The translations under genes were made by a program, and so were the position numbers. DNA of 64,000 nucleotides from a virus: positions 15,834 through 79,833 of the IMG/VR virus record IMGVR_UViG_3300015263_000719, one strand, 5' to 3'. Below the pieces are notes generated by a model that was not told where the DNA came from, did no database searches, and saw only the letters and a program-made list of their open reading frames with translations. Each line of letters opens with the position of its first letter. Position 1 is the stretch's first letter. Shown here one piece after another: positions 44,213 to 64,000 of the stretch.

Positions 44213-46888
44213 TTAGCTTTTATTACTTGAAGACTTCTTTTCTTTACTTTCAGTCTTCTTAGCTGCAATTTCCTTGGATTTGTTTTCAGCATCCATTTTA
44301 TCCTTTACAGCTTTGTTACCAATTTCCTGTTCTTTAAGATCTAATTCTCTATCTTTCTGAACACCTGTTCTCACATCCATAGCCATATCATGTGCTATCT
44401 TAGCAGCTTCAAGTGGATCAGGAATTCCATCCTGATCTTGATTAAGATCAGCCTGCATCTTATAAACATCAATTGCAGCTCTTTGCAACATATAATCACC
44501 TTTGATATGTTCCTTCTCAATTTCATGAGCTTGTTCATCTTCTCTGGCTTCAATCTGCATTTGTTGCAATTCTTTCTGTTGTTGTGATCTCATCTGTTCT
44601 AACTGCTGTTCTCTTTCAGATTGTTTATTCCTTTCAATCTGAATCATCTTATGAATCTCTTCTGGAGATTCACCATTAGCAATAGCTTTAAGCATACTGG
44701 ATACAGCTTCCATACCTTCACCAGCATTCTGACTAAATGCATGTACCATTTGTGTCATAGATTCTCTATAGAATTGATCTTGTCCTGAATTAGTTAAATA
44801 TAAACCAATGTCATTATGATCCAGAATTTCAGGTGTAATTTTCAATAACTCCTCTGTTCCATTAGGAGTAACATATTGTATGAAATGTTCCTTCTTTTGA
44901 GGATTCATTTCAAATATTTGTTTACAATACATTCTGAATAAAATCAACCACTCATTCAATGCTTTCTTCCATACTTGAGAATGCATATAAAAATAAGGTT
45001 CTGTAATATGATGTGACTGAGTAATAGCCTGTTGATTATCTGTAACATTGGAATTAGAGCTAAACATAGCTTCTCTTTGTGGACTAATTCCCATAGCCAT
45101 TCCTATTTCAACATCCAGATAATCTAATAATTGCATCAAGTTAATAAGCTCTGCAGCATTACCTGTCATAGAAGATCTGCTTCCTGGACTTCTGGTAGAA
45201 GGAGGTAATCCATCTGCTGATTGTGAACCTGAATAATAATTCTTACCAAGTTTTTTTACAAACAGATTCCAAACAGCAACTTTATCTCTTCCTGGAATAG
45301 GAACTCCATTCTCATCCATTGACAGATAATCAGGTATCTGATCAACATCTACATCCATAACATAACCTTGATACTTAGCAAGTTCTCTATTCAAAATAAG
45401 CTTTACATAAAAAGCTTCCATTTGAACTGGAGTAGCTCTTTGAACAAGACTAATAGATTCAGAGTTTAAATTAGTAAATAATCTACCTTTATAACTTAAT
45501 GTGAATGATCCATAAGGATCATCAATATTAATTGGTTGATTAGGTACTTCTCTCATTTTAGTAAATGTATTTTCTCCAAGTCTGACAACTTCATATCTTC
45601 TTGGTATCCATAACTTTTCTGCAGAATAAGCAACACCAAATTCATCAGTCCATTCCCATTTAACAGATTTATCACCAAATTTATTAACAAATTTAATTTT
45701 AACTGCATCTTCAGGAATTTCAAACTTATTACTAACTATCTCAGTTATTTCTTTATTATACTCATCAGTATAACTTAAAAATATAAGTTCTCTGAATGCT
45801 TTAAATTCAATATGAGTTTCCCATAATAATCTTTCTGAATTAAATCTTCTATTAGTTCCTGAACCCATAGATTGTCCAACTGTCTTATCATGCTGGTCCA
45901 TAGAACTTCTCAACATACTTTCAGTAGTATCATTAAATACTTTCTTAGCATTGCCAGAAAGAACATCATGTCTTTTATCCATGGAAAGATTTGAACTTGG
46001 AGTGTATATTCCAAGTCTTTCAAAATCTTCATCTTTCAGATCATTGATATATTTATTATAAGCATCAGCAAGAGTAATAGCATTTTTATACCAGAAATAA
46101 TCTCCTTTCTCAACATCAATAACATTAGGTGATTTGTGAAAACCACAATGTAATGGATTAAGAACTTTAACTATAGGTTTACCATATTCCCAACCTACCC
46201 AGATAAATACTCTATCTGCAGTAATACCATGTCTTAAAGACAATTGTTGCTGAGTTAGTATATCCTGATCATAATGACAGAACTTTAAAGCTTTGCTATT
46301 AAAGATTTCCCATTCTGTAAGAAAAGATTTAGTAGCAAGATCTTCTGGTTCAAGTTGAGTTCTCATCTCTTCCATTGCCTTTTCAATATCCTGATTGGAC
46401 ATTTCACCTTGCTGCTGCATTTTAACTTTTTCAATCATCAATTGAACTTTTTCTTCAATTGACATTCTTATTGCTTCTTTTTGAGCTTCTGATTTTTCTT
46501 TTACTTCCTTATCAGATAGAAGTGTAATTTTTAAATTATCTTTTCGTTTTAATAGTTCACCTACTAAAACATTAACTTTATTATGTATCCTACTATAAGG
46601 TAAAATTTCTTCCTCATAACCTTCAGGTAATAAATCATTTTCTCCAAGAGGATTAATGAATCTTTCCAGTTCTTGTTTAAAACCTTCAATATTATTATTT
46701 ACCAGATCATAACTTAATTTCATCTTTGGATAGTCACTTACAACAGTAGTGTCATAAGGAACTAAATAGTTGATATAATCTTTAAACCATTGACCATCCT
46801 CTTTATATTTTTGTGATTCAGGTATCTTCAACTTAAAAATAGGTTCATCAAGTCTTGAAGTAGGTTTTTTACTTTTTACTGCTTCCAT
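44213..46888 (-). CDS. Portal protein
   Basis: 891 aa; NKVNVLVGELLKR, SLVQRA.P.Q and MGISPQRE motifs; C-terminal coiled coil with DLNQDQDGIPD; follows TerL. Confidence 0.9.
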   Translation of the reverse strand: MEAVKSKKPTSRLDEPIFKLKIPESQKYKEDGQWFKDYINYLVPYDTTVVSDYPKMKLSYDLVNNNIEGFKQELERFINPLGENDLLPEGYEEEILPYSRIHNKVNVLVGELLKRKDNLKITLLSDKEVKEKSEAQKEAIRMSIEEKVQLMIEKVKMQQQGEMSNQDIEKAMEEMRTQLEPEDLATKSFLTEWEIFNSKALKFCHYDQDILTQQQLSLRHGITADRVFIWVGWEYGKPIVKVLNPLHCGFHKSPNVIDVEKGDYFWYKNAITLADAYNKYINDLKDEDFERLGIYTPSSNLSMDKRHDVLSGNAKKVFNDTTESMLRSSMDQHDKTVGQSMGSGTNRRFNSERLLWETHIEFKAFRELIFLSYTDEYNKEITEIVSNKFEIPEDAVKIKFVNKFGDKSVKWEWTDEFGVAYSAEKLWIPRRYEVVRLGENTFTKMREVPNQPINIDDPYGSFTLSYKGRLFTNLNSESISLVQRATPVQMEAFYVKLILNRELAKYQGYVMDVDVDQIPDYLSMDENGVPIPGRDKVAVWNLFVKKLGKNYYSGSQSADGLPPSTRSPGSRSSMTGNAAELINLMQLLDYLDVEIGMAMGISPQREAMFSSNSNVTDNQQAITQSHHITEPYFYMHSQVWKKALNEWLILFRMYCKQIFEMNPQKKEHFIQYVTPNGTEELLKITPEILDHNDIGLYLTNSGQDQFYRESMTQMVHAFSQNAGEGMEAVSSMLKAIANGESPEEIHKMIQIERNKQSEREQQLEQMRSQQQKELQQMQIEAREDEQAHEIEKEHIKGDYMLQRAAIDVYKMQADLNQDQDGIPDPLEAAKIAHDMAMDVRTGVQKDRELDLKEQEIGNKAVKDKMDAENKSKEIAAKKTESKEKKSSSNKS

Positions 46889-49212
46889 TATTGTAATAAA
46901 TGTTTGTGTACTTTAGGTAGCATTTTTGGATTTACTGACAAAAAGCTTAAAGGATTTTTATTGTTTCCTTTTCTTCTCACTTCCTGTATCATTTTGTGTT
47001 CCTCCTCTCTTATATACAGTGGAAATCCCAGCATACTATCAACTGCATCGAAGTTTCCTTCTTTCAAATCAAATGCTGCAATTTGCCTCAGTGAAAAAAT
47101 ACATGGAAGAGTTTCAATAACTAACTTTCCATTTAATGATTCAATAGGTTTTAATAGAAAATCTGCAAAATCATCAAGCATTGAAATTTTTGCAATCTGA
47201 TTACCTACTATATATCCATATTGTGTAACTGTTCTGCCATAAATAGAATCTCCTTTTTCAAATTGTGGTCTGATACATAAAAGATCCTGTTTTTTCTTTT
47301 TATGAAAATAGCCTCTGCAATACTCTCCTCTATTAGCCTCATACCATAAATGTCTTTTTGGATTTCCATAAAATGCCATAAGCTTTTCAAGATTGGAATA
47401 AAATTCCCTTTTACCATTTTTAGCTTTACCTACATAAGTAGCAACTAAAGGTGAACCTGCAAGATACTTATCCCAATACTTAGGATTCATCCATACATGT
47501 ACTGAACCAAGAGAACCTCCTTTATCCCATTCATCTGAAACATAAGGATCATGTGTAAACACAAACATATCATTAGGTACTTCTCCTGCAACCTCAATGG
47601 GAGGTGTAAACATTAATATAGCTCCTTCAAGACTTTGCCTCATTGAATTTGTTTCAAGAGGAAATTCATAAAAAGGTTCTGCATTATGATCTACACTATA
47701 ATCTATATTATCCCTTTTTGAAGTATCCCAATGTAACTTTATTGGTGTACCTATCTTCTGATATAAATTATCTTTAGCTAATTCCTTTATTCTTTCTTCA
47801 GCTTCTTTAGCTGGAAGAATATGTCCTCTGTTTGTTTGCCACATATCAGATGGAATCATTGGATGATTCATCTTTTCAGCTCTCAATATAGAGGGATCAT
47901 CAGATTCAGCAGCCTTAGATCTCTCAATCATATAATACTCCTTAGCTTCTTCTATGAGAGTATTTCCATTCTTGTCTTTAAATTTTCTATTTGTAATATA
48001 TGCAGGTAAGAAAAAACCAATTGGTTCATTAGAACCTTCCCAATAATCAGGGAATTCTAAACAATCATAATCTCTTGGATGGGTGAAAACCTGTCTTGCT
48101 GGAATTACTGTTTCCATATTACCAGATGTACCAAGGAATATCTGAGTACCAAATTGTTGTCCACCTCTTTGAACTGTTGCTCTATTTGAACCATAAGCTT
48201 CAATAAGCAATTCAGTTAAACCAATCTCCTCATAATATACGTCCATATAAGAACCACCTGCTCCAGCTTCAGCACCATCTCTCTTTTGTGTAGAATAGTT
48301 AACATGAATAATAGCAGATTTACTACCATGTCCTCCTGTCCATCTACCATTCATTTTCATCTCATACTCATGTCTCCATGGATTCTCCTTATTATTTGCT
48401 TTAAGGTTTCCTTTCATATCTTTATAGAAAGGACTGGGTTGATAATCAGGATCTCCAACTTGTCCCCAAGCTCCCAGTTTAGGATCTTTAGCAAGTTCAT
48501 CCATAGATACTTCAGTAAAACCAACAAACTGAGATGACTTATCTGTTCTTCCAGAACCTACAAGCACTTTAGCTGTTGGTGGATTTGTCCTTGCTTTCTC
48601 AGTATAATACTTAATACCATCAAAACACATTCTATATTGAGCACCAGCTATAGAATAATAATAAGTCTTTCCTCCACCTCTGGAACCCATCTCAATAATA
48701 TTCAGCGTTCTATTCTGATATAGAGGAGCACCAAGATCTTTCTCATGTAACATTCTGATATTTTCTCTCGGAGGTATAAATTCCTTAAACTTACCATTAG
48801 ACATAAATAAGTTAGGATTACTGGTAACACTTGAATTAGAGTAGTTTTTCTTTATCTTTTTAATTATATGATTACTGGTATATTTATCATCATTGTTCCA
48901 ACCAGAAAAACCTTCTGCTTCTAAAAAATTATATGATCTTTCCCATTCCAAATCAGAAACAAGAGGTCTTCCCAGTTCTCTTGTATTATCATCCATGGTA
49001 AGTTCTATTGTACCAAAATTACCATAGAAAAATAATCTTCCTGGCATATATCTGAGCTTACCAAAGTCCTCACCCCAAAACCCTTCAATAGCCATTTTCT
49101 TGAGTTTTTGCCAGTAAGGAGTATGTCTTGGATCATCAGGATGAAGTATTCTTACTCCATCCTTTAACATAAATCTACTTAGATCTTCAATTCTAATCCA
49201 CTGTTCACGCAT
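46888..49212 (-). CDS. terL: Terminase large subunit
   Basis: Walker A GSRGGGKT, Walker B YYEEIG, GTSG motif, RNase H-like THDPY, YEANRG and NFDAVD. Confidence 0.92.
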   Translation of the reverse strand: MREQWIRIEDLSRFMLKDGVRILHPDDPRHTPYWQKLKKMAIEGFWGEDFGKLRYMPGRLFFYGNFGTIELTMDDNTRELGRPLVSDLEWERSYNFLEAEGFSGWNNDDKYTSNHIIKKIKKNYSNSSVTSNPNLFMSNGKFKEFIPPRENIRMLHEKDLGAPLYQNRTLNIIEMGSRGGGKTYYYSIAGAQYRMCFDGIKYYTEKARTNPPTAKVLVGSGRTDKSSQFVGFTEVSMDELAKDPKLGAWGQVGDPDYQPSPFYKDMKGNLKANNKENPWRHEYEMKMNGRWTGGHGSKSAIIHVNYSTQKRDGAEAGAGGSYMDVYYEEIGLTELLIEAYGSNRATVQRGGQQFGTQIFLGTSGNMETVIPARQVFTHPRDYDCLEFPDYWEGSNEPIGFFLPAYITNRKFKDKNGNTLIEEAKEYYMIERSKAAESDDPSILRAEKMNHPMIPSDMWQTNRGHILPAKEAEERIKELAKDNLYQKIGTPIKLHWDTSKRDNIDYSVDHNAEPFYEFPLETNSMRQSLEGAILMFTPPIEVAGEVPNDMFVFTHDPYVSDEWDKGGSLGSVHVWMNPKYWDKYLAGSPLVATYVGKAKNGKREFYSNLEKLMAFYGNPKRHLWYEANRGEYCRGYFHKKKKQDLLCIRPQFEKGDSIYGRTVTQYGYIVGNQIAKISMLDDFADFLLKPIESLNGKLVIETLPCIFSLRQIAAFDLKEGNFDAVDSMLGFPLYIREEEHKMIQEVRRKGNNKNPLSFLSVNPKMLPKVHKHLLQ

Positions 49213-60310: not shown

Positions 60311-60922
60311 ATGAAATTAATTGCATATGATATGCTAGATGAGATTCCTTATCCAGTAACACAAAGTATTGCATATGAACCAACAAGAAGCATTATTAAT
60401 CATTTTAATGATGCTATACTGACAATATTTGAAGAGAGTGATAAAGAAAATCTGTATATTTACTGTACAGGTAGTTCTGGTTCATTCTTATCAGCTATTT
60501 TATCTGTTGCTTTTTATCAAAGATTTGATAATAAAGGAAAAGATTATAAAATAACTATTAATCACATAAAGAAGGATGGTGAAAAAGCTCATAAAACAAG
60601 TTTAAATGTTACTACTTATGAGGCTGCAGAAGCATTTAATGTTATTGTGGATGATTTTATAGCTTCAGGTAGGACTATAGAGAATATCATGAATGGTATT
60701 GACAGGCACTTTACATCATCATCATCAGGTCCTATGATAGATTTACTTGCTATTACTGGTTTTGTCAGTTATGGTAGTATAGATATATTTAATGATAGAA
60801 TCTATTCTTGTTTAGCAAGAAATTATGGAGGAATTTCCAATGACTGTGAATTAATAGAATATGACGTCTGGCAAAAAAGAAAAGGGCTTTGTCCCTCAAA
60901 AAGAAAAATGCAAGTACTGTGA
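60311..60922 (+). CDS. Type I phosphoribosyltransferase-family protein
   Basis: PRPP-binding loop VIVDDFIASGRTI; TGSSG motif. Confidence 0.8.
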   Translation: MKLIAYDMLDEIPYPVTQSIAYEPTRSIINHFNDAILTIFEESDKENLYIYCTGSSGSFLSAILSVAFYQRFDNKGKDYKITINHIKKDGEKAHKTSLNVTTYEAAEAFNVIVDDFIASGRTIENIMNGIDRHFTSSSSGPMIDLLAITGFVSYGSIDIFNDRIYSCLARNYGGISNDCELIEYDVWQKRKGLCPSKRKMQVL

Positions 60923-61037
60923 GCAAGATAGACATTATCCTTGTAGATGCTTAGAGCATTTACAGGGATGTGTCTATGCTACAGAATCTGTAAAGAAGTC
61001 TATTAATAGACGATTTAATTTTACAAAGTTTCTTTAA
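60861..61037 (+). CDS. Possible small Cys-rich protein (58 aa), not in the ORF track
   Basis: MTSGKKEKGFVPQKEKCKYCEQDRHYPCRCLEHLQGCVY...; overlaps the PRTase end by 62 nt and contains a long hairpin. Confidence 0.3.
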   Translation: MTSGKKEKGFVPQKEKCKYCEQDRHYPCRCLEHLQGCVYATESVKKSINRRFNFTKFL

Positions 61038-61049
61038 TAGTATTAAAAC

Positions 61050-61080
61050 TTGATAGTTTATGAAAAATTACTTAACTTTG
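61050..61080 (+). promoter_or_regulatory. Bacteroidota-type promoter driving the ncRNA locus
   Basis: TTG-N20-TAACTTTG, followed by about 1 kb with no ORF of 60 aa or more. Confidence 0.8.
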
Positions 61081-61113
61081 TACTTCAAAACCCCAACTAA
61101 TTTAAACAAAAAC

Positions 61114-61282
61114 GTTGAATTAAATGATCAGATGGATGAAAGGTGCAGTAGGAACCACCATGTTGTATCTCCACAAGATACTCAGCCCTTCAGTTCATGA
61201 CAAAAGATTAATACTTATTATGTGGATAATAATATTAATCAAATGGTGTAAGTAATCCATATAATAAGCTGTTTAATTCAAT
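61114..61282 (+). ncRNA. Structured RNA domain A (multi-branch)
   Basis: Closing helix GTTGAATTAAAT/GTTTAATTCAAT. Internal stems: ATGGATGAAAGG/CCCTTCAGTTCAT, GTATCT/AGATAC, GATTAATACTTATTAT/ATAATAATATTAATC. Confidence 0.6.
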
Positions 61283-61290
61283 AAAGAAAT

Positions 61291-61587
61291 CATGTTAAAC
61301 TGGGAAACTCCAGTAAAGAAGAGTGATAGTATCAGTTTAAAGCTGTTGTTTTGGCAGGTACTTTTTAATCGCATAATTAGATGAGTAAATATTTCTACTG
61401 GGAGGTGGGATATTATACATTGTAATGATTTTTAAATACACTCGGTTTTAAGTTGAAAGTCTGTTTGTTGTGAGATAGAGTCTTGTTTGATTCTTCGCAC
61501 GGTCAGCAGGAGTTTTGTTGATTATCTGGCAAAAGAGTCAGGTATCAGCATATTATCACTTAGGTCTTTATTTTCACAGTTTACATG
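61291..61587 (+). ncRNA. Structured RNA domain B (about 300 nt, ornate multi-branch)
   Basis: Nested long-range helices CATGTTAAACTG/CAGTTTACATG, TAAAGA/TCTTTA and AGTGATAGTAT/ATATTATCACT enclose at least five hairpins rich in G-U pairs; ends 3 nt before a tRNA-like 5' end. Confidence 0.65.
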
Positions 61588-61590
61588 GTC

Positions 61591-61844
61591 GCTAGGATAG
61601 CTCAATTGGTAGAGCACCTGGTCTGCTTTTTTCATCAGAAATGTAAGTTAATTATTTATTGTTGTGAGAACATCTGAATCCATAAGGGGTTGTGGGCAAT
61701 GTTCACAAATAGATAAAGATTAACTTAGTTTTTGGTGTTAGATAAGTTCAAGCTGAACATACTATGTGAAAACTAGTATTGGGAAGCTAGATTCTTATCG
61801 TTGGTTAGACCAGGAGGTTGCAGGTTCAAGTCTTGCTCCTAGCA
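61591..61844 (+). tRNA. tRNA-like gene 1, with a 188-nt structured insert replacing the anticodon loop; identity undetermined
   Basis: Acceptor GCTAGGA/TCCTAGC + A73; D arm GCTC-AATTGGTA-GAGC; stem CCTGG/CCAGG; variable loop AGGTT; T arm GCAGG-TTCAAGT-CTTGC; no encoded CCA. Confidence 0.8.
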
Positions 61845-61949
61845 CTTATTTTAAAAATACTCCTCACACTTATTAATATATCTTGGTTAATTGGACATTG
61901 GCTGTTCCAAAAACCGTTTTAAGTAGATTAGATTAATTTGAGAGAGGAA

Positions 61950-62085
61950 GAGGTGATAGCATTATGGTTCAATGCATTCTTTTGATTGAAGTGGTGTTAG
62001 TTTTCATATACCTTTTAATAGCGATTCTCTATTCTTATGACTTCATGATAGAGAAAGATTTGCAGGTTCAAATCCTGCCACCTCA
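61950..62085 (+). tRNA. tRNA-like gene 2, with a 69-nt branched insert in the anticodon arm; identity uncertain (TT-GAT follows the stem)
   Basis: Acceptor GAGGTG/CACCTC (6 bp); D arm GCAT-TATGGTTCA-ATGC; stem TTCTT/GAGAA; T arm GCAGG-TTCAAAT-CCTGC; followed by a T run. Confidence 0.7.
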
Positions 62086-62109
62086 TTTTTTTCATTAAAT
62101 AAAAATTCC

Positions 62110-62721
62110 ATGAGACAAATTATAATAATGATTTGTGTACTATTTATATTAATGTTTACAAGCATTAGAGATACTGCACATGTCACTTACACATACACAG
62201 CACCAGTTGTTGAGTATTGTGAAAACAAGTGGTCAAAGCTGGACACTTTGACTGCAATTCCTATTAATGACACTGAAGATTTTATTGAGTATTATGATGT
62301 AATATTCAGATATGTTGCTGAAAAGACAGGACTATCTGAAGCATTTATATATGCTTATTTTGTTATTGAAACAGCAGACAGACATGGTAAAAGAGCCAAT
62401 TCTGAGTTGTGGAGATATCACAATAATCCAGGTGGTATTAAATGGAAATCATTTTTATCAGATAAGATTGTTAAATATGAAGATGATTGCTTTGATGAGA
62501 ATGGTAATGAAATAGACTGTAAATTTGCATCATTTAATACTATAAAAGAAGGTATAGATGCATGGTTACTGGTCTTTAATGCAAATAGATATGATAGATG
62601 TAAAAACTTGCCTCTCAAGGAAACATGTAAGTGTTTCCGTGATAGGAAATATCATTCATCACCTAGATATTTGCATCGGTATTTACTTGCTGAAGAGTAT
62701 AACTCTTTGGTAATTAGATAA
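62110..62721 (+). CDS. GH73 glucosaminidase/muramidase with an N-terminal signal anchor (candidate endolysin)
   Basis: A...IET...HNNPGGIK...FASF.TIKEGI...RY pattern; hydrophobic N-terminus. Confidence 0.75.
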   Translation: MRQIIIMICVLFILMFTSIRDTAHVTYTYTAPVVEYCENKWSKLDTLTAIPINDTEDFIEYYDVIFRYVAEKTGLSEAFIYAYFVIETADRHGKRANSELWRYHNNPGGIKWKSFLSDKIVKYEDDCFDENGNEIDCKFASFNTIKEGIDAWLLVFNANRYDRCKNLPLKETCKCFRDRKYHSSPRYLHRYLLAEEYNSLVIR

Positions 62722-62738
62722 TTACTAAATTTCCACAT

Positions 62739-63002
62739 ATGGAAACAAATATAATCTCCCATAGACCAAAAGTGGCTATGAGAGACAGAGTTATTTGTAA
62801 AATTGAAAACATAGATGAGATTACAAGTCAGGCTAATTATAATGGTAATGTAATACCGTTATTTACTACATTTGGTGGAGCAAGACTGTATCCAGAAGGA
62901 CATAGAGATTATAAAGATGATCTTGAAGATGTTTATCTGGAATATATTGTTGTATCATTTCCTGATACACCAATTTGGAAGACAATTAGATTGTCACTTT
63001 AA
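62739..63002 (+). CDS. Hypothetical protein (87 aa)
   Basis: ORF in the operon. Confidence 0.55.
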   Translation: METNIISHRPKVAMRDRVICKIENIDEITSQANYNGNVIPLFTTFGGARLYPEGHRDYKDDLEDVYLEYIVVSFPDTPIWKTIRLSL

Positions 63003-63031
63003 TAATTTTTTAAAACTTAATATATTATTAT

Positions 63032-63301
63032 ATGTTGGTTTTTCATGATACAGATGGTCATATTCTTATTACAGTAGAACAGCAAAATTTAGATAAATGT
63101 GTAGCTGTTATGGAAAAGTATGATCAAGGTACATTAAAATGGAATGGTAAACTGATTGGTAACATGACAGTTAGCCATATATATAATTGTAAAAATTATA
63201 TCAGAACACGTTGGAAAACTACATCCTTATCACAAGTTTGGCTTGATATCTTTGATGCAGAGATAAAAGCTAGAATGAGAAAGATTGTAAAGAGAAGATA
63301 A
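63032..63301 (+). CDS. Hypothetical phage protein (W...I..M...HI.NC motif)
   Basis: ORF in the operon. Confidence 0.6.
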   Translation: MLVFHDTDGHILITVEQQNLDKCVAVMEKYDQGTLKWNGKLIGNMTVSHIYNCKNYIRTRWKTTSLSQVWLDIFDAEIKARMRKIVKRR

Positions 63302-63324
63302 GGCGTTTTTATACATATATTGTC

Positions 63325-63352
63325 TAAGGGAGTTACTACGGTAACTCCTTTA
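63325..63352 (+). terminator. Stable cUACGg-capped hairpin directly 5' of tRNA-like gene 3 (terminator or processing signal)
   Basis: TAAGGGAGTTAC-TACG-GTAACTCCTTTA. Confidence 0.55.
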
Positions 63353-63366
63353 ATTGGTCTCATAGC

Positions 63367-63762
63367 TCAACTGGATAGAGCATGGGTTTTCTTGAGAATC
63401 AACTGATTATGGTGTTCAAGACGGTGACAATTAGAGCATAATAATATGCATTTATCAAGCTCTTGTTGTATTTTGGCTTTACTTTTGAGTCTAAGCTTAG
63501 ACCACTCAGCATCTTTTTCTTCTGGATTAAGATGATGAAAGTCAAATATACAATAGTTATCATTAGTACCTTCAAGGTTACAGCGATCACATTTGTTACC
63601 TAAATAAATAATAGCATCTATTTTACGTTGAATCCAACGTTTTATACATCTATTATTAAAACATTGTTTACAGTAGCTCATCACTCCTTGTGAATGAGTG
63701 GATGATTTATAGAAATCATCAGTGCTTTTAGTGATTTTGCAATCTATACATTTCTTTTCCAT
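63367..63762 (-). CDS. HNH homing endonuclease with Zn-finger motifs, inside the tRNA gene on the opposite strand
   Basis: CIDC..CKQC, CDRC, FDFHHLNP and KCILLCSNCHRLEH; the stop codon falls in the tRNA D arm. Confidence 0.88.
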   Translation of the reverse strand: MEKKCIDCKITKSTDDFYKSSTHSQGVMSYCKQCFNNRCIKRWIQRKIDAIIYLGNKCDRCNLEGTNDNYCIFDFHHLNPEEKDAEWSKLRLKSKAKIQQELDKCILLCSNCHRLEHHNQLILKKTHALSS

Positions 63763-63766
63763 CTTG

Positions 63767-63797
63767 TAAAGATAAGAAGAATTGTTTAGAAATCCTA
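63767..63797 (-). promoter_or_regulatory. Probable promoter for the HNH gene, inside the tRNA insert
   Basis: Minus strand TAG-N20-TATCTTTA, the same -7 variant as at 20255, 4 nt before the ATG. Confidence 0.5.
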
Positions 63798-64000
63798 ATT
63801 CTAATCACACTATTTTCAAGAAACCCAAGGTTGTAGGTTCGAGTCCTACTGGGATCACAAGAGTCACTTGAGATTAACTAGTATAGTGACAGTCCTTGGA
63901 AGAGTTAAGCTTCATGAAGGAACCTGTAGACCTAGGCTGGTCTACCAGACTGAGTAGGAAAAAATTAGATCCGAGAGGGCAGACACTAAATAGCTGTGAA

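What the first reader, a model, noticed from the sequence alone, without database searches (positions are those of the whole stretch)
61050..63857. Set of three tRNA-shaped RNAs carrying large cargo in place of the anticodon loop (possible natural tRNA-scaffold RNA system)
Seen: three genes (61591-61844, 61950-62085, 63356-63857) have recognisable acceptor, D and T arms. In each, the anticodon stem continues as an extended helix that closes a 188-, 69- or about 435-nt insert. None encodes CCA, and no uninterrupted tRNA was seen in the window. No group I core or bulge-helix-bulge motif is recognisable. For genes 1 and 2, no excision restores a canonical U33/R37 7-nt loop. Established: RNase P, 3'-processing nucleases and the CCA-adding enzyme recognise the acceptor/T-arm elbow rather than the anticodon; engineered tRNA scaffolds exploit this to stabilise RNA placed in the anticodon arm. 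Intron-like inserts have been reported in tRNA genes of some large phages. Inference: this phage either uses tRNA shells to mature and protect cargo RNAs (for example decoys against anticodon nucleases, or protein-binding RNAs), or uses an unknown protein-dependent tRNA splicing route.
Basis: partly seen in the sequence, partly recalled or inferred. Interest (0 to 1): 0.92.

Follow-up and report, generated by a model that had tools for sequence, protein, structure and literature searches.

The report
Phage tRNA genes split by insertions
All three tRNA genes found in this marine-sediment crAss-like phage are split in the anticodon loop by ribozyme-free inserts, and one insert is a selfish DNA-cutting enzyme gene that targets phage arginine-tRNA genes, so this looks like mobile-element damage rather than a purpose-built RNA-carrier system.

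Summary
There are three tRNA-shaped genes, at 61591-61844, 61950-62085 and 63356-63857. Each has an intact acceptor, D and T domain and a 179-188, 62-69 or 428-435 nt insert in the anticodon arm. None encodes CCA, and the 79.8-kb record has no uninterrupted tRNA. ARAGORN with introns allowed finds all three, and finds none in 2 Mb of shuffled genome.

The "cargo system" reading is not supported. Gene 3 is the clade's conserved tRNA-Arg(UCU), split at 36/37 by an intact antisense HNH homing endonuclease gene. In 28 of 80 other viral loci, homologues of this HNH lie within 150 nt of a tRNA-Arg(UCU) gene. Some flank a group I intron-bearing copy. Others sit beside the remnant of a broken copy and carry a replacement tRNA-Arg. 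Four crAss-like relatives have the intact tRNA-Arg without this HNH family.

Gene 1 carries a strongly structured, strand-specific insert. It gives a canonical loop (CU GUU AG) only if the anticodon stem has 6 bp. Gene 2 cannot be restored and has a 6-bp acceptor stem.

No ribozyme family, splicing endonuclease or RNA ligase was detected. Whether the inserts are removed remains untested.

This scan has reported HNH-split tRNA-Arg genes and tRNA-in-tRNA inserts before, on other DNA. Lak megaphage "enigmatic tRNA introns" are the published precedent.

The parts
61591..61844 (+). Gene 1: tRNA-shaped gene. Acceptor 61591-61597 / 61837-61843, D arm 61600-61615, anticodon stem 61617-61621 / 61810-61814, T arm 61820-61836, discriminator A at 61844, no CCA.
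   Evidence: ARAGORN -i calls it tRNA-Asn(gtt) with a 179-nt intron. The MFE fold gives the cloverleaf shell, z -5.97. Rfam tRNA matches only in part, 17 bits.
61625..61803 (+). Insert 1: 179 nt in the 6-bp-stem reading, or 188 nt (61622-61809) between the strands of the 5-bp stem. It forms a three-way junction. One arm is a rod of about 43 bp (61633-61737). The other is a second arm (61741-61799).
   Evidence: MFE -51.4 kcal/mol with z -6.0 on the + strand, against -30.7 with z -3.8 on the - strand. Helix list and mean pair probability 0.91. No Rfam family. No copy elsewhere in the genome or in 12 relatives. No trace of HEG coding sequence.
61950..62085 (+). Gene 2: tRNA-shaped gene with a 6-bp acceptor stem (one nt missing opposite A7). 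D, T and anticodon stems are intact. It is followed directly by a T-run, and there is no CCA.
   Evidence: Rfam RF00005 scores 32.1 bits against a cut-off of 29, with a 65-nt insertion and one deleted acceptor position. ARAGORN -i also calls it.
61982..62050 (+). Insert 2: 69 nt between the anticodon-stem strands, or 62 nt if a 7-nt loop is left. It has a symmetric UGAU/UGAU internal loop, a 6-bp helix and two small hairpins.
   Evidence: Every possible 7-nt loop has U at position 37. The insert alone is not more stable than shuffles, z -0.1. End pairing is marginal, p about 0.06.
63356..63392 (+). Gene 3, 5' exon of tRNA-Arg(UCU), running through anticodon position U36.
   Evidence: A 28-nt exact match, running through the anticodon, to uninterrupted tRNA-Arg(TCT) genes in 7 other viral contigs. 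The shell best matches Arg(tct) among 313 phage tRNAs. The exons share 52-58 of 74 nt with tRNA-Arg(UCU) of crAss-like relatives that carry the canonical D arm (G001, G008, G010, G013), and 38 of 74 with the variant copy of G018.
63393..63820 (+). Insert 3: 428 nt, between U36 and A37. Its removal gives the loop UU UCU AA.
   Evidence: Loop enumeration. No Rfam hit. About 370 nt are antisense HNH coding sequence.
63367..63762 (-). HNH homing endonuclease gene, 131 aa, antisense to the tRNA. Its last 9 codons and its stop codon are the antisense of the tRNA's anticodon-stem and D-arm sequence.
   Evidence: phrog_2255, E 3e-27. 165 homologues were found, and all invariant Cys, His and Asn columns are kept. 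This is the only copy of the family in the record.
63389..63399 (+). 5' arm of the helix that closes insert 3. It pairs with 63812-63822. Together with the anticodon stem it gives about 16 bp with one bulge.
   Evidence: Duplex energy -12.0 kcal/mol, against a shuffle mean of -3.2; 0 of 2000 shuffles reach it. The MFE fold shows the same helix.
63812..63822 (+). 3' arm of the helix that closes insert 3.
63821..63857 (+). Gene 3, 3' exon of tRNA-Arg(UCU), from A37 to discriminator A. No CCA.
61085..61590 (+). Context: an ORF-free, strand-specific structured RNA that ends 0-3 nt before gene 1. A Bacteroidota-type -7 motif, TAACTTTG, lies at 61073-61080.
   Evidence: Over 61085-61590, z is -3.9 on the + strand against +0.5 on the - strand. 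Over 61291-61587, z is -4.6 against -1.2, with 24 G-U among 114 pairs. Motif position. No Rfam family.

Best explanation
These are three resident tRNA genes of a crAss-like phage, each split in the anticodon loop by a ribozyme-free insertion. They are not a dedicated tRNA-scaffold system.

Gene 3 is the clade's tRNA-Arg(UCU), occupied at position 36/37 by an antisense HNH homing endonuclease gene. Members of this HNH family live beside or inside phage tRNA-Arg(UCU) genes.

Inferred mechanism, at the DNA level: during co-infection the enzyme cuts an intact tRNA-Arg allele that lacks the endonuclease gene. The break is repaired from the copy that carries the gene, so the gene spreads. The insertion also destroys the target site in its own genome.

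In other phages the same family comes with a rescue. This is either a variant replacement tRNA-Arg, or a group I intron in the neighbouring tRNA-Arg. No rescue is visible here, but the contig ends 143 nt after gene 3.

Genes 1 and 2 carry non-coding inserts of the same general kind as the 'enigmatic' tRNA introns of Lak megaphages. I read them as mobile or recombination-derived insertions in a tRNA cluster exposed to endonuclease activity.

At the RNA level the acceptor/T/D domains are intact, so RNase P, 3' trimming and CCA addition can be expected. That is an inference. Without removal of the insert these RNAs cannot decode. I consider loss or crippling of tRNA function more likely than splicing.
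For: - HNH identity and integrity: phrog_2255 at 3e-27. All invariant catalytic and zinc-binding columns are present.
- Family-wide link to tRNA-Arg(UCU): 28 of 80 homologous viral loci have a tRNA-Arg(tct) within 150 nt, in all orientations. 49 of 80 lie among tRNA genes. C-terminal tails such as GFEP, GIEP and RDSNP are antisense T-arm translations.
- In L039 the adjacent tRNA-Arg(UCU) holds a true group I intron at 33/34, at 75.6 bits. L049 holds a 206-nt homologue of it at the same site, which Rfam did not list. L039 also shows that Rfam would have detected a group I core here.
- In G018 (also held as locus L050), L028 and L042 the HNH stop codon lies in the antisense D-loop of a 17-22-nt remnant of a canonical tRNA-Arg. 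G018 and L028 also carry a complete tRNA-Arg(tct) just upstream of the HNH. In G018 that copy has a rewritten D arm.
- Relatives G001, G008, G010 and G013 have an intact tRNA-Arg(UCU) and no HNH of this family. These are empty alleles.
- Removing 428 nt restores a canonical Arg(UCU) loop.
- No group I, self-cleaving ribozyme or other family was found in any insert.
- No RtcB, Rnl1, Rnl2, EndA or RNase III in the record.
- The genome carries another homing endonuclease, a GIY-YIG. TerL relatives are full of intein-sized insertions.
- Related phages show similar wreckage or nesting in tRNA clusters. G010 has a tRNA inside a tRNA. G004 has two tRNA shells with 40-60-nt inserts, 1 kb from the homologue of ORF 62110.
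- Published precedents: SegB recognises tRNA T-arm sequence and drives inheritance and rearrangement of tRNA clusters (PMC2330249, PMC13096335). Lak phage tRNA introns are present or absent between near-identical genomes (PMC6784885).
Against: - All three shells are pristine apart from one missing acceptor nucleotide in gene 2. That fits either very recent insertion or continued selection.
- All three tRNA genes of the record are interrupted and none is whole. This is odd if they are simply dead.
- tRNA-Arg(UCU) is the tRNA found most often in the crAss-like records examined (5 of 12), so losing it should cost something.
- The ends of insert 3 pair far better than chance, which resembles the exon-aligning helices of spliced pre-tRNAs.
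- Insert 1 is a strongly structured, strand-specific RNA, it is not repeated elsewhere, and it has no trace of a nuclease gene. Its origin as a mobile element is assumed, not shown.
- No cleavage, homing or RNA data exist for this phage.
Confidence: 0.55

Rival explanations
1. The inserts are true introns removed by a protein-dependent, ribozyme-free route. An endonuclease (host or phage) would cut at the insert-closing helix, and an RNA ligase would join the halves. The products would be working tRNA-Arg(UCU), a tRNA-Asn(GUU)-like molecule with a 6-bp anticodon stem, and a third tRNA.
For: Precise removal restores a canonical loop in gene 3, and in gene 1 if a 6-bp stem is allowed. The shells are intact. 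The ends of insert 3 form a helix of about 16 bp with the anticodon stem, p<0.0005. No other tRNA is present in 79.8 kb. tRNA-Arg(UCU) is conserved in relatives. The control searches found RtcB and RNase III in Bacteroides thetaiotaomicron, a plausible host phylum. Lak phage introns have stayed unexplained since 2019 (PMC6784885).
Against: No bulge-helix-bulge motif is present. No EndA, RtcB, Rnl1 or Rnl2 was found in the record. Gene 2 cannot give an R37 loop by any excision. The offset between the two splice sites within the helix differs in direction between genes 1 and 3, so one ruler-type or RNase III-type rule does not fit both (sequence analysis). Homing endonucleases of this family elsewhere leave plainly dead tRNA remnants.
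Confidence: 0.2
2. The tRNA shells would be natural scaffolds that get cargo RNAs processed by RNase P, 3' nucleases and the CCA enzyme, and then stabilised. The cargo would act as decoys, protein binders or antisense RNA. A related variant is that the shells serve as RNase P/Z punctuation that releases the 500-nt structured RNA upstream.
For: Insert 1 is an ornate + strand structure, with z -6.0 and mean pair probability 0.91. A strand-specific structured RNA ends right at the 5' end of gene 1. No anticodon can be restored in gene 2. The gene 3 transcript would carry a full antisense copy of the HNH mRNA and could restrain it (inference). T4 makes RNAs of unknown role from its tRNA cluster (PMC3014915). 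From my own knowledge, bacterial YrlA RNAs contain a tRNA-like module.
Against: The largest 'cargo' is simply the antisense of a selfish gene. Insert 2 has no significant structure. The inserts match no family and are not repeated or found in relatives. There is no YrlA hit and no Ro60/TROVE gene. Gene 3 restores a perfect tRNA-Arg(UCU), which a scaffold would not need. No conservation or covariation data support it. The one variant seen (run X5) has only 3 changes.
Confidence: 0.12
3. Assembly or recombination artefact. On this view the halves belong to different tRNA genes, or a chimeric contig joined them.
For: The region lies at the very end of the contig. tRNA clusters are repeat-rich and prone to misassembly.
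Against: The 5' and 3' halves of each gene are mutually complementary in both the acceptor and the anticodon stems. Independent runs from other studies hold identical or near-identical pieces spanning gene 1 from 61583 to 61845. These include both junctions in run X5 (61602-61845) and the 5' junction in run X2 (table 8). The protein database lists the same HNH and ORF 62110 on a 111-kb contig.
Confidence: 0.03

Closest known systems
Free-standing homing endonucleases in phage tRNA clusters, chiefly T4/T6 SegB (GIY-YIG; PMC2330249, PMC13096335). From my own knowledge, also the HNH enzymes of the phage T5 tRNA region.
   Same: A small nuclease gene sits within a phage tRNA cluster. The family-wide link to tRNA genes implies that the target is tRNA gene sequence. 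It would spread by break repair in co-infection. Rearranged or partial tRNA copies lie around it.
   Different: The enzyme is of the HNH class, not GIY-YIG. It sits inside the anticodon loop of its presumed target gene, antisense, rather than between genes. Cleavage has not been shown.
'Enigmatic' tRNA introns of Lak megaphages (Devoto et al. 2019, PMC6784885)
   Same: Phages of Bacteroidota-type hosts with tRNA genes interrupted in the anticodon loop by inserts that match no Rfam intron family. A relative of this phage (G010) has the same tRNA-inside-a-tRNA layout as Lak tRNA-Thr.
   Different: Here the inserts are not tRNA-shaped, and one is a nuclease gene. The phage is a crAss-like virus of about 100 kb from marine sediment. 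Every tRNA gene seen is interrupted.
Group I introns in bacterial and phage tRNA anticodon loops, with or without homing endonuclease genes (review PMC3984707). Examples found here: L039 and L049.
   Same: The position is in the anticodon loop. The 5' exon ends in U and the insert ends in G, in gene 3 and in the 6-bp reading of gene 1. There is an association with an HNH gene of the same family.
   Different: There is no catalytic core, whereas L039 scores 75.6 bits on Rfam RF00028. Insert 2 is far too short. Insert 3 is filled by an antisense ORF.
HNH plus replacement-tRNA-Arg cassettes that split a resident tRNA-Arg. These were seen here in G018 and L028 and were noted earlier by this scan on other phages. 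I did not find them in the papers I searched.
   Same: The same HNH family is involved. The resident tRNA-Arg is broken, and the HNH stop codon lies in the antisense D-loop of the tRNA's 5' part.
   Different: The window's cassette carries no replacement tRNA. The break is at 36/37 rather than in the D loop, and both halves are kept complete.
Engineered tRNA scaffolds and natural tRNA-like modules (YrlA Y RNAs; MALAT1-mascRNA). This comparison rests on my own knowledge.
   Same: An intact acceptor/T/D domain is attached to a foreign RNA placed in or instead of the anticodon arm.
   Different: No YrlA match and no Ro60 gene were found. YrlA is circularly permuted relative to these genes. No evidence shows that the inserts are the selected part.

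Membership tests
Group I intron (Rfam RF00028) | Conserved catalytic core (P3-P9) detectable by the covariance model | tested here: not met
   No RF00028 match at E<=10 in 60500-64000 or in 61040-61860. The positive control, the L039 tRNA-Arg intron, scores 75.6 bits.
Group I intron (Rfam RF00028) | 5' exon ends in U and intron ends in G | tested here: inconclusive
   Met for gene 3 (U36|...G|A37) and for gene 1 in the 6-bp-stem reading (U33|...G|G34). Gene 2 has no defined boundaries.
Archaeal/eukaryal protein-spliced tRNA intron | Bulge-helix-bulge motif at the exon-intron junctions | tested here: not met
   The junction helices are continuous with single-nt bulges (genes 1 and 3), or have a symmetric 4x4 loop (gene 2).
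Archaeal/eukaryal protein-spliced tRNA intron | Splicing endonuclease (EndA, PF01974) and a ligase (RtcB, Rnl) available | tested here: not met
   None was found in the 79.8-kb record, which is 72% complete. The host is unknown, so host enzymes could not be tested.
Free-standing homing endonuclease with intronless homing (SegB-like behaviour) | Intact nuclease gene next to or in its target locus, recurrently across genomes | tested here: met
   Catalytic columns are intact. 28 of 80 loci have tRNA-Arg(tct) within 150 nt.
Free-standing homing endonuclease with intronless homing (SegB-like behaviour) | Related genomes carry the uninterrupted, nuclease-free allele | tested here: met
   G001, G008, G010 and G013 have an intact tRNA-Arg(UCU) and no member of the HNH family.
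Free-standing homing endonuclease with intronless homing (SegB-like behaviour) | Site-specific cleavage of the empty allele and biased inheritance in crosses | not testable with these tools
   This needs purified enzyme and phage crosses.
HNH + replacement tRNA-Arg cassette | A complete substitute tRNA-Arg travels with the nuclease | tested here: not met
   Only 58 nt separate the HNH start from the 3' exon. No other tRNA-Arg is present in the record. The contig ends 143 nt downstream, so a copy beyond the end cannot be excluded.
tRNA-shaped mobile intron (tRNA inside a tRNA; Lak type) | The insert itself folds as a tRNA (acceptor plus T arm), so that RNase P/Z could release it | tested here: not met
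   No tRNA-model match lies wholly inside an insert and aligns a complete tRNA there. The 17-18-bit partial matches for genes 1 and 3 are anchored on the shell's D or T arm, with insert bases filling the rest. Insert folds are a rod plus hairpin, small hairpins, or antisense ORF. The layout does occur in relative G010, where the inner tRNA scores 57.6 bits.
Canonical tRNA (Rfam RF00005) | Full cloverleaf scoring above the gathering cut-off, with a 7-nt U33/R37 loop | tested here: inconclusive
   Gene 2 passes at 32.1 bits, but every loop it can form has U37. Genes 1 and 3 match only in part as they stand. After notional excision, gene 3 is canonical, and gene 1 is canonical only with a 6-bp stem.
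tmRNA / YrlA-type tRNA-like RNAs | Match to the family model; partner protein (SmpB-type tag logic, or Ro60) present | tested here: not met
   ARAGORN finds no tmRNA. No Rfam tmRNA or YrlA match. No TROVE domain in the record.

The most novel reading that the evidence does not exclude
Bacterial viruses may carry tRNA introns that are removed without a ribozyme. Host or phage proteins would recognise the intact tRNA body and the insert-closing helix, cut out the insert and religate the halves. A homing endonuclease could then live inside a tRNA gene at no cost. In addition, the 179-nt structured insert of gene 1 might be released as a stable RNA with a function of its own.
Probability: 0.17. 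Interest if true: 0.9.

Novelty: new variant of a known kind. Interest (0 to 1): 0.55.

Why it matters
In bacteria and their viruses, the only tRNA introns with a known removal mechanism are self-splicing ribozymes. Inserts like these have no ribozyme and have stayed unexplained since they were noticed in Lak megaphages.

This locus ties one such insert to a homing endonuclease family that follows tRNA-Arg(UCU) genes through many phages. That gives a concrete, testable origin. The enzyme, its target alleles and the split gene are all available as sequence.

If the split genes prove to be spliced, that would reveal a new RNA-processing route in bacteria. If they are dead, the locus shows how far selfish nucleases can erode a phage's tRNA set.

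Tried and rejected
- BLASTN of 61040-64000 against 50,697 phage records found no match.
- Single-protein pattern scans of IMG/VR with ORF 62110 and with TerL found nothing. An alignment-based TerL scan was needed instead.
- BLAST of the region against 18 related records gave only short tRNA-like matches and the HNH gene.
- Two metagenome pattern scans for gene 1 found nothing. One used the shell with a 170-200 nt gap, the other the T arm plus acceptor.
I therefore could not read the 111-kb contig that carries this locus beyond the window's end.
- No RNA holder is listed for this sequence.
- Laying contigs of four runs showed 'joints' that skip the inserts. All of them carry 10-20 foreign letters between the two sides, so they are other organisms' tRNAs matching the shell. 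They are not spliced or empty alleles.
- I considered RNase III-type excision. The gene 3 splice sites are offset like a 2-nt 3' overhang in one pairing register. In the other register they are not, and the offset in gene 1 runs the opposite way. I dropped it as a common rule.
- I rejected an archaeal host with BHB splicing. The phage has crAss-type TerL, portal and MCP, and the ORF next to the tRNA-like genes matches a peptidoglycan-hydrolase family just below Pfam's cut-off. No BHB motif is present.
- Decayed nuclease genes in inserts 1 and 2, the upstream RNA or the 143-nt tail: tblastn with 120 family members and the GIY-YIG protein gave nothing better than E 0.08.
- Inserts as multi-copy MITE-like elements: no second copy in the genome or in 12 relatives.
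- The sigma-70 promoter and terminator scan was uninformative. The strict Bacteroidota two-box promoter pattern has no hit in the region.
- The isotype of gene 1 could not be fixed. ARAGORN says Asn(GUU). The shell is most like a C33-bearing tRNA-Pro(UGG) of a 455-kb phage.

Full report
**Setting**

The window is the last 64 kb of a 79.8-kb IMG/VR virus record, estimated 72% complete. It encodes crAss-type TerL, portal and major head proteins. The best DNA holder is a marine sediment metagenome. The finding lies at the extreme right end, and the contig stops 143 nt after gene 3.

**Observation**

Default ARAGORN reports no tRNA in the window. With anticodon-loop introns allowed it reports exactly three genes, at 61591-61845, 61948-62087 and 63356-63858. 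The same settings give no call in 2.0 Mb of block-shuffled genome.

Rfam's tRNA model passes its cut-off on gene 2 across a 65-nt insertion (32.1 bits). It sees only parts of genes 1 and 3. MFE folds of genes 1 and 3 give the cloverleaf shell with the insert closed by the anticodon stem.

The distances between the two strands of the anticodon stem are 188, 69 and 435 nt. No gene is followed by CCA. No group I, tmRNA, self-cleaving ribozyme or other Rfam family matches at E<=10. The description is therefore accurate.

There are two refinements.
- Gene 1 does give a canonical loop, CU GUU AG, if the U-A pair below the stem is counted as a sixth pair and 61625-61803 is removed. Gene 2 gives U37 in every case and lacks one acceptor nucleotide.
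- Pairing between the two ends of the insert exceeds chance only for gene 3 (0 of 2000 shuffles). For gene 2 the fraction is 0.057, and for gene 1 it is 0.90.

**Gene 3**

Removing 63393-63820 gives the loop UU UCU AA. Three results identify the gene as tRNA-Arg(UCU):
- The 5' exon is identical over 28 nt, through the anticodon, to uninterrupted tRNA-Arg(TCT) genes in seven other viral contigs.
- The shell matches Arg(tct) best among 313 phage tRNAs.
- The exons share 52-58 of 74 nt with the intact tRNA-Arg(UCU) of crAss-like relatives G001, G008, G010 and G013.

The insert is filled by a 131-aa ORF on the opposite strand (63367-63762). This ORF is an HNH endonuclease (phrog_2255, 3e-27). It keeps every invariant Cys, His and Asn column of its family. 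Its last nine codons and its stop codon are the antisense of the tRNA's anticodon stem and D arm. Only 58 nt of the insert are non-coding, so there is no room for a ribozyme.

**The HNH family**

A protein search returned 165 homologues, mostly about 120 aa, from metagenomes. Many end in GFEP, GIEP or RDSNP, which are translations of the antisense tRNA T arm.

Of the 80 best viral loci, 49 contain tRNA genes within 2.5 kb. In 28 of the 80 a tRNA-Arg(tct) lies within 150 nt of the HNH gene, in convergent, co-directional or divergent orientation. Two special arrangements occur.
- In L039 the adjacent tRNA-Arg(UCU) carries a real group I intron at 33/34, scoring 75.6 bits. L049 carries a 206-nt homologue of it at the same site, which Rfam did not list.
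- In G018 (a crAss-like relative, TerL 45% identical; also held as locus L050), L028 and L042, the HNH stop codon lies in the antisense D-loop of a 17-22-nt remnant of a canonical tRNA-Arg. G018 and L028 also carry a complete tRNA-Arg(tct) just upstream of the HNH. In G018 that copy has a rewritten D arm.

Relatives G001, G008, G010 and G013 have the intact tRNA-Arg and no member of the family.

This pattern fits a homing endonuclease whose target is the phage tRNA-Arg(UCU) gene. T4 SegB, which recognises tRNA T-arm sequence, behaves the same way (PMC2330249, PMC13096335).

Earlier agents of this scan reported the nuclease-plus-replacement-tRNA design on other phages. I reached the same reading independently on G018. 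The window differs in three ways: only the nuclease is inserted, the break is at 36/37, and both halves are complete.

**Genes 1 and 2**

Insert 1 is a well-defined three-way junction. It has a rod of about 43 bp and a second arm. MFE is -51.4 kcal/mol with z -6.0 on the + strand, against z -3.8 on the other strand. Mean pair probability is 0.91. It has no Rfam match, no second copy in the genome or in 12 relatives, and no trace of nuclease coding sequence.

A sediment run from another study holds a variant of gene 1 with three changes, all in the insert. One change turns an A-U pair into G-U. That is too few to test covariation.

Insert 2 is not more stable than shuffled sequence (z -0.1).

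The isotype of gene 1 is unsettled. ARAGORN calls Asn(GUU). The shell is closest to a C33-bearing tRNA-Pro of a 455-kb phage. Gene 2 resembles no isoacceptor well.

**Clade context**

Among 12 related records read in full, G010 has a tRNA nested in the anticodon loop of another tRNA. The inner tRNA scores 57.6 bits. This is the layout reported for Lak phage tRNA-Thr (PMC6784885).

G004 has two tRNA shells (33.9 and 49.5 bits) with 40-60-nt inserts, one of which contains a T-arm-like hairpin. They lie 1 kb from the only detectable homologue of ORF 62110.

The genome has a second homing endonuclease, a GIY-YIG. Many TerL relatives carry intein-sized insertions. Interrupted tRNA genes are thus a recurring feature of this lineage.

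**Splicing machinery**

No RtcB, Rnl1, Rnl2, EndA, RNase III or Ro60/TROVE domain was found in the record. The control searches show RtcB, RNase III and TROVE in Bacteroides thetaiotaomicron, so a host contribution cannot be excluded. No RNA run holds the sequence.

**Interpretation**

The best-supported reading is that these are resident tRNA genes split by ribozyme-free insertions, in a tRNA cluster exposed to homing-endonuclease activity.

For gene 3 the origin is well supported. It rests on the intact nuclease, the family-wide link to tRNA-Arg(UCU), the empty alleles in relatives, and the remnant-plus-rescue versions elsewhere. For genes 1 and 2 the mobile origin is inferred by analogy.

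What the RNAs do now is open. I put about 0.55 on selfish insertion with tRNA function lost or crippled. I put 0.2 on true protein-dependent splicing. The tRNA-scaffold or punctuation ideas get about 0.12, with gene 1 and the upstream 500-nt structured RNA as their best support. An artefact gets 0.03.

Several features keep the alternatives alive: the pristine shells, the absence of any whole tRNA, the significant helix closing insert 3, and the ornate insert 1.

**Novelty**

Free-standing homing endonucleases in tRNA clusters are published, and so are unexplained phage tRNA introns. A nuclease gene sitting antisense inside the anticodon loop of its own target tRNA, with no ribozyme and no rescue copy, is a new variant. 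So is a phage whose three tRNA genes are all interrupted. I did not find either in the papers I searched. The scan has reported close cousins before, on other DNA.

Noticed in passing
window 61085-61590 (+): An ORF-free, strand-specific structured RNA ends at the 5' end of gene 1. Over 61291-61587, z is -4.6 on the + strand against -1.2 on the - strand, with 24 G-U among 114 pairs. It has no Rfam family. A Bacteroidota-type -7 motif, TAACTTTG, lies at 61073-61080. RNase P cleavage at gene 1 would define its 3' end.
   Followed up: partly
L039:2851-3134 (-) and L049:2879-3159 (-): tRNA-Arg(UCU) genes with a 206-209-nt intron at 33/34. The L039 intron scores 75.6 bits on Rfam RF00028, and L049 carries a homologous sequence. 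Each is convergent with an HNH gene of the same family. The layout looks like collaborative homing of an intron and a free-standing nuclease.
   Followed up: partly
G018:C1:35100-35700 (loci L050, L178, L252); also L028 and L042: The HNH stop codon lies in the antisense D-loop of a 17-22-nt remnant of a canonical tRNA-Arg. In G018 and L028 a complete tRNA-Arg(UCU) lies just upstream of the HNH, and in G018 it has a strongly altered D arm. In G018 a 13-nt 3' remnant (T-stem strand plus acceptor strand) lies about 85 nt further on. This fits a nuclease that carries a cut-resistant replacement tRNA.
   Followed up: partly
G010:C1:47056-47207 (-) (locus L201:7056-7207): A complete tRNA (57.6 bits) is nested in the anticodon loop of an otherwise intact outer tRNA shell. 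It sits within a tRNA array of a complete 108-kb crAss-like genome with terminal repeats.
   Followed up: partly
G004:C1:41807-42129 (+) (locus L248:1807-2127): Two adjacent tRNA shells pass the Rfam cut-off (33.9 and 49.5 bits) with 40-60-nt insertions in the anticodon arm. One insert contains a T-arm-like hairpin and a GNRA hairpin. They lie 1 kb downstream of the homologue of window ORF 62110-62721.
   Followed up: partly
G000:C1:1771-2001 (+), outside the window: A GIY-YIG homing endonuclease domain (29.8 bits) lies in a 219-aa open frame. It is a second selfish nuclease in the same genome.
   Followed up: no
window 46888-49212 (-) and its relatives P0122-P0271: Many TerL homologues of this clade are 1100-1500 aa and match the 774-aa query in 2-3 stretches. 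This indicates one or two intein-sized insertions. The window's own TerL is uninterrupted.
   Followed up: no
L009:1646-1725 (+), a 455-kb viral contig: An uninterrupted tRNA shares 26 nt of D arm and anticodon stem with gene 1. Its anticodon loop reads UC UGG AG, with C rather than U at position 33.
   Followed up: no
window 61964-62098 (+): A 44-aa, very hydrophobic ORF starts in the D loop of gene 2 and runs through the insert into the T-run. It is probably a by-product of T-rich sequence.
   Followed up: no
window 60311-60922 (+): A 203-aa protein with weak phosphoribosyltransferase-like matches (PRTase-CE at 6.6e-4, Pribosyltran at 3e-3, both below cut-off) lies just upstream of the non-coding block.
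   Followed up: no
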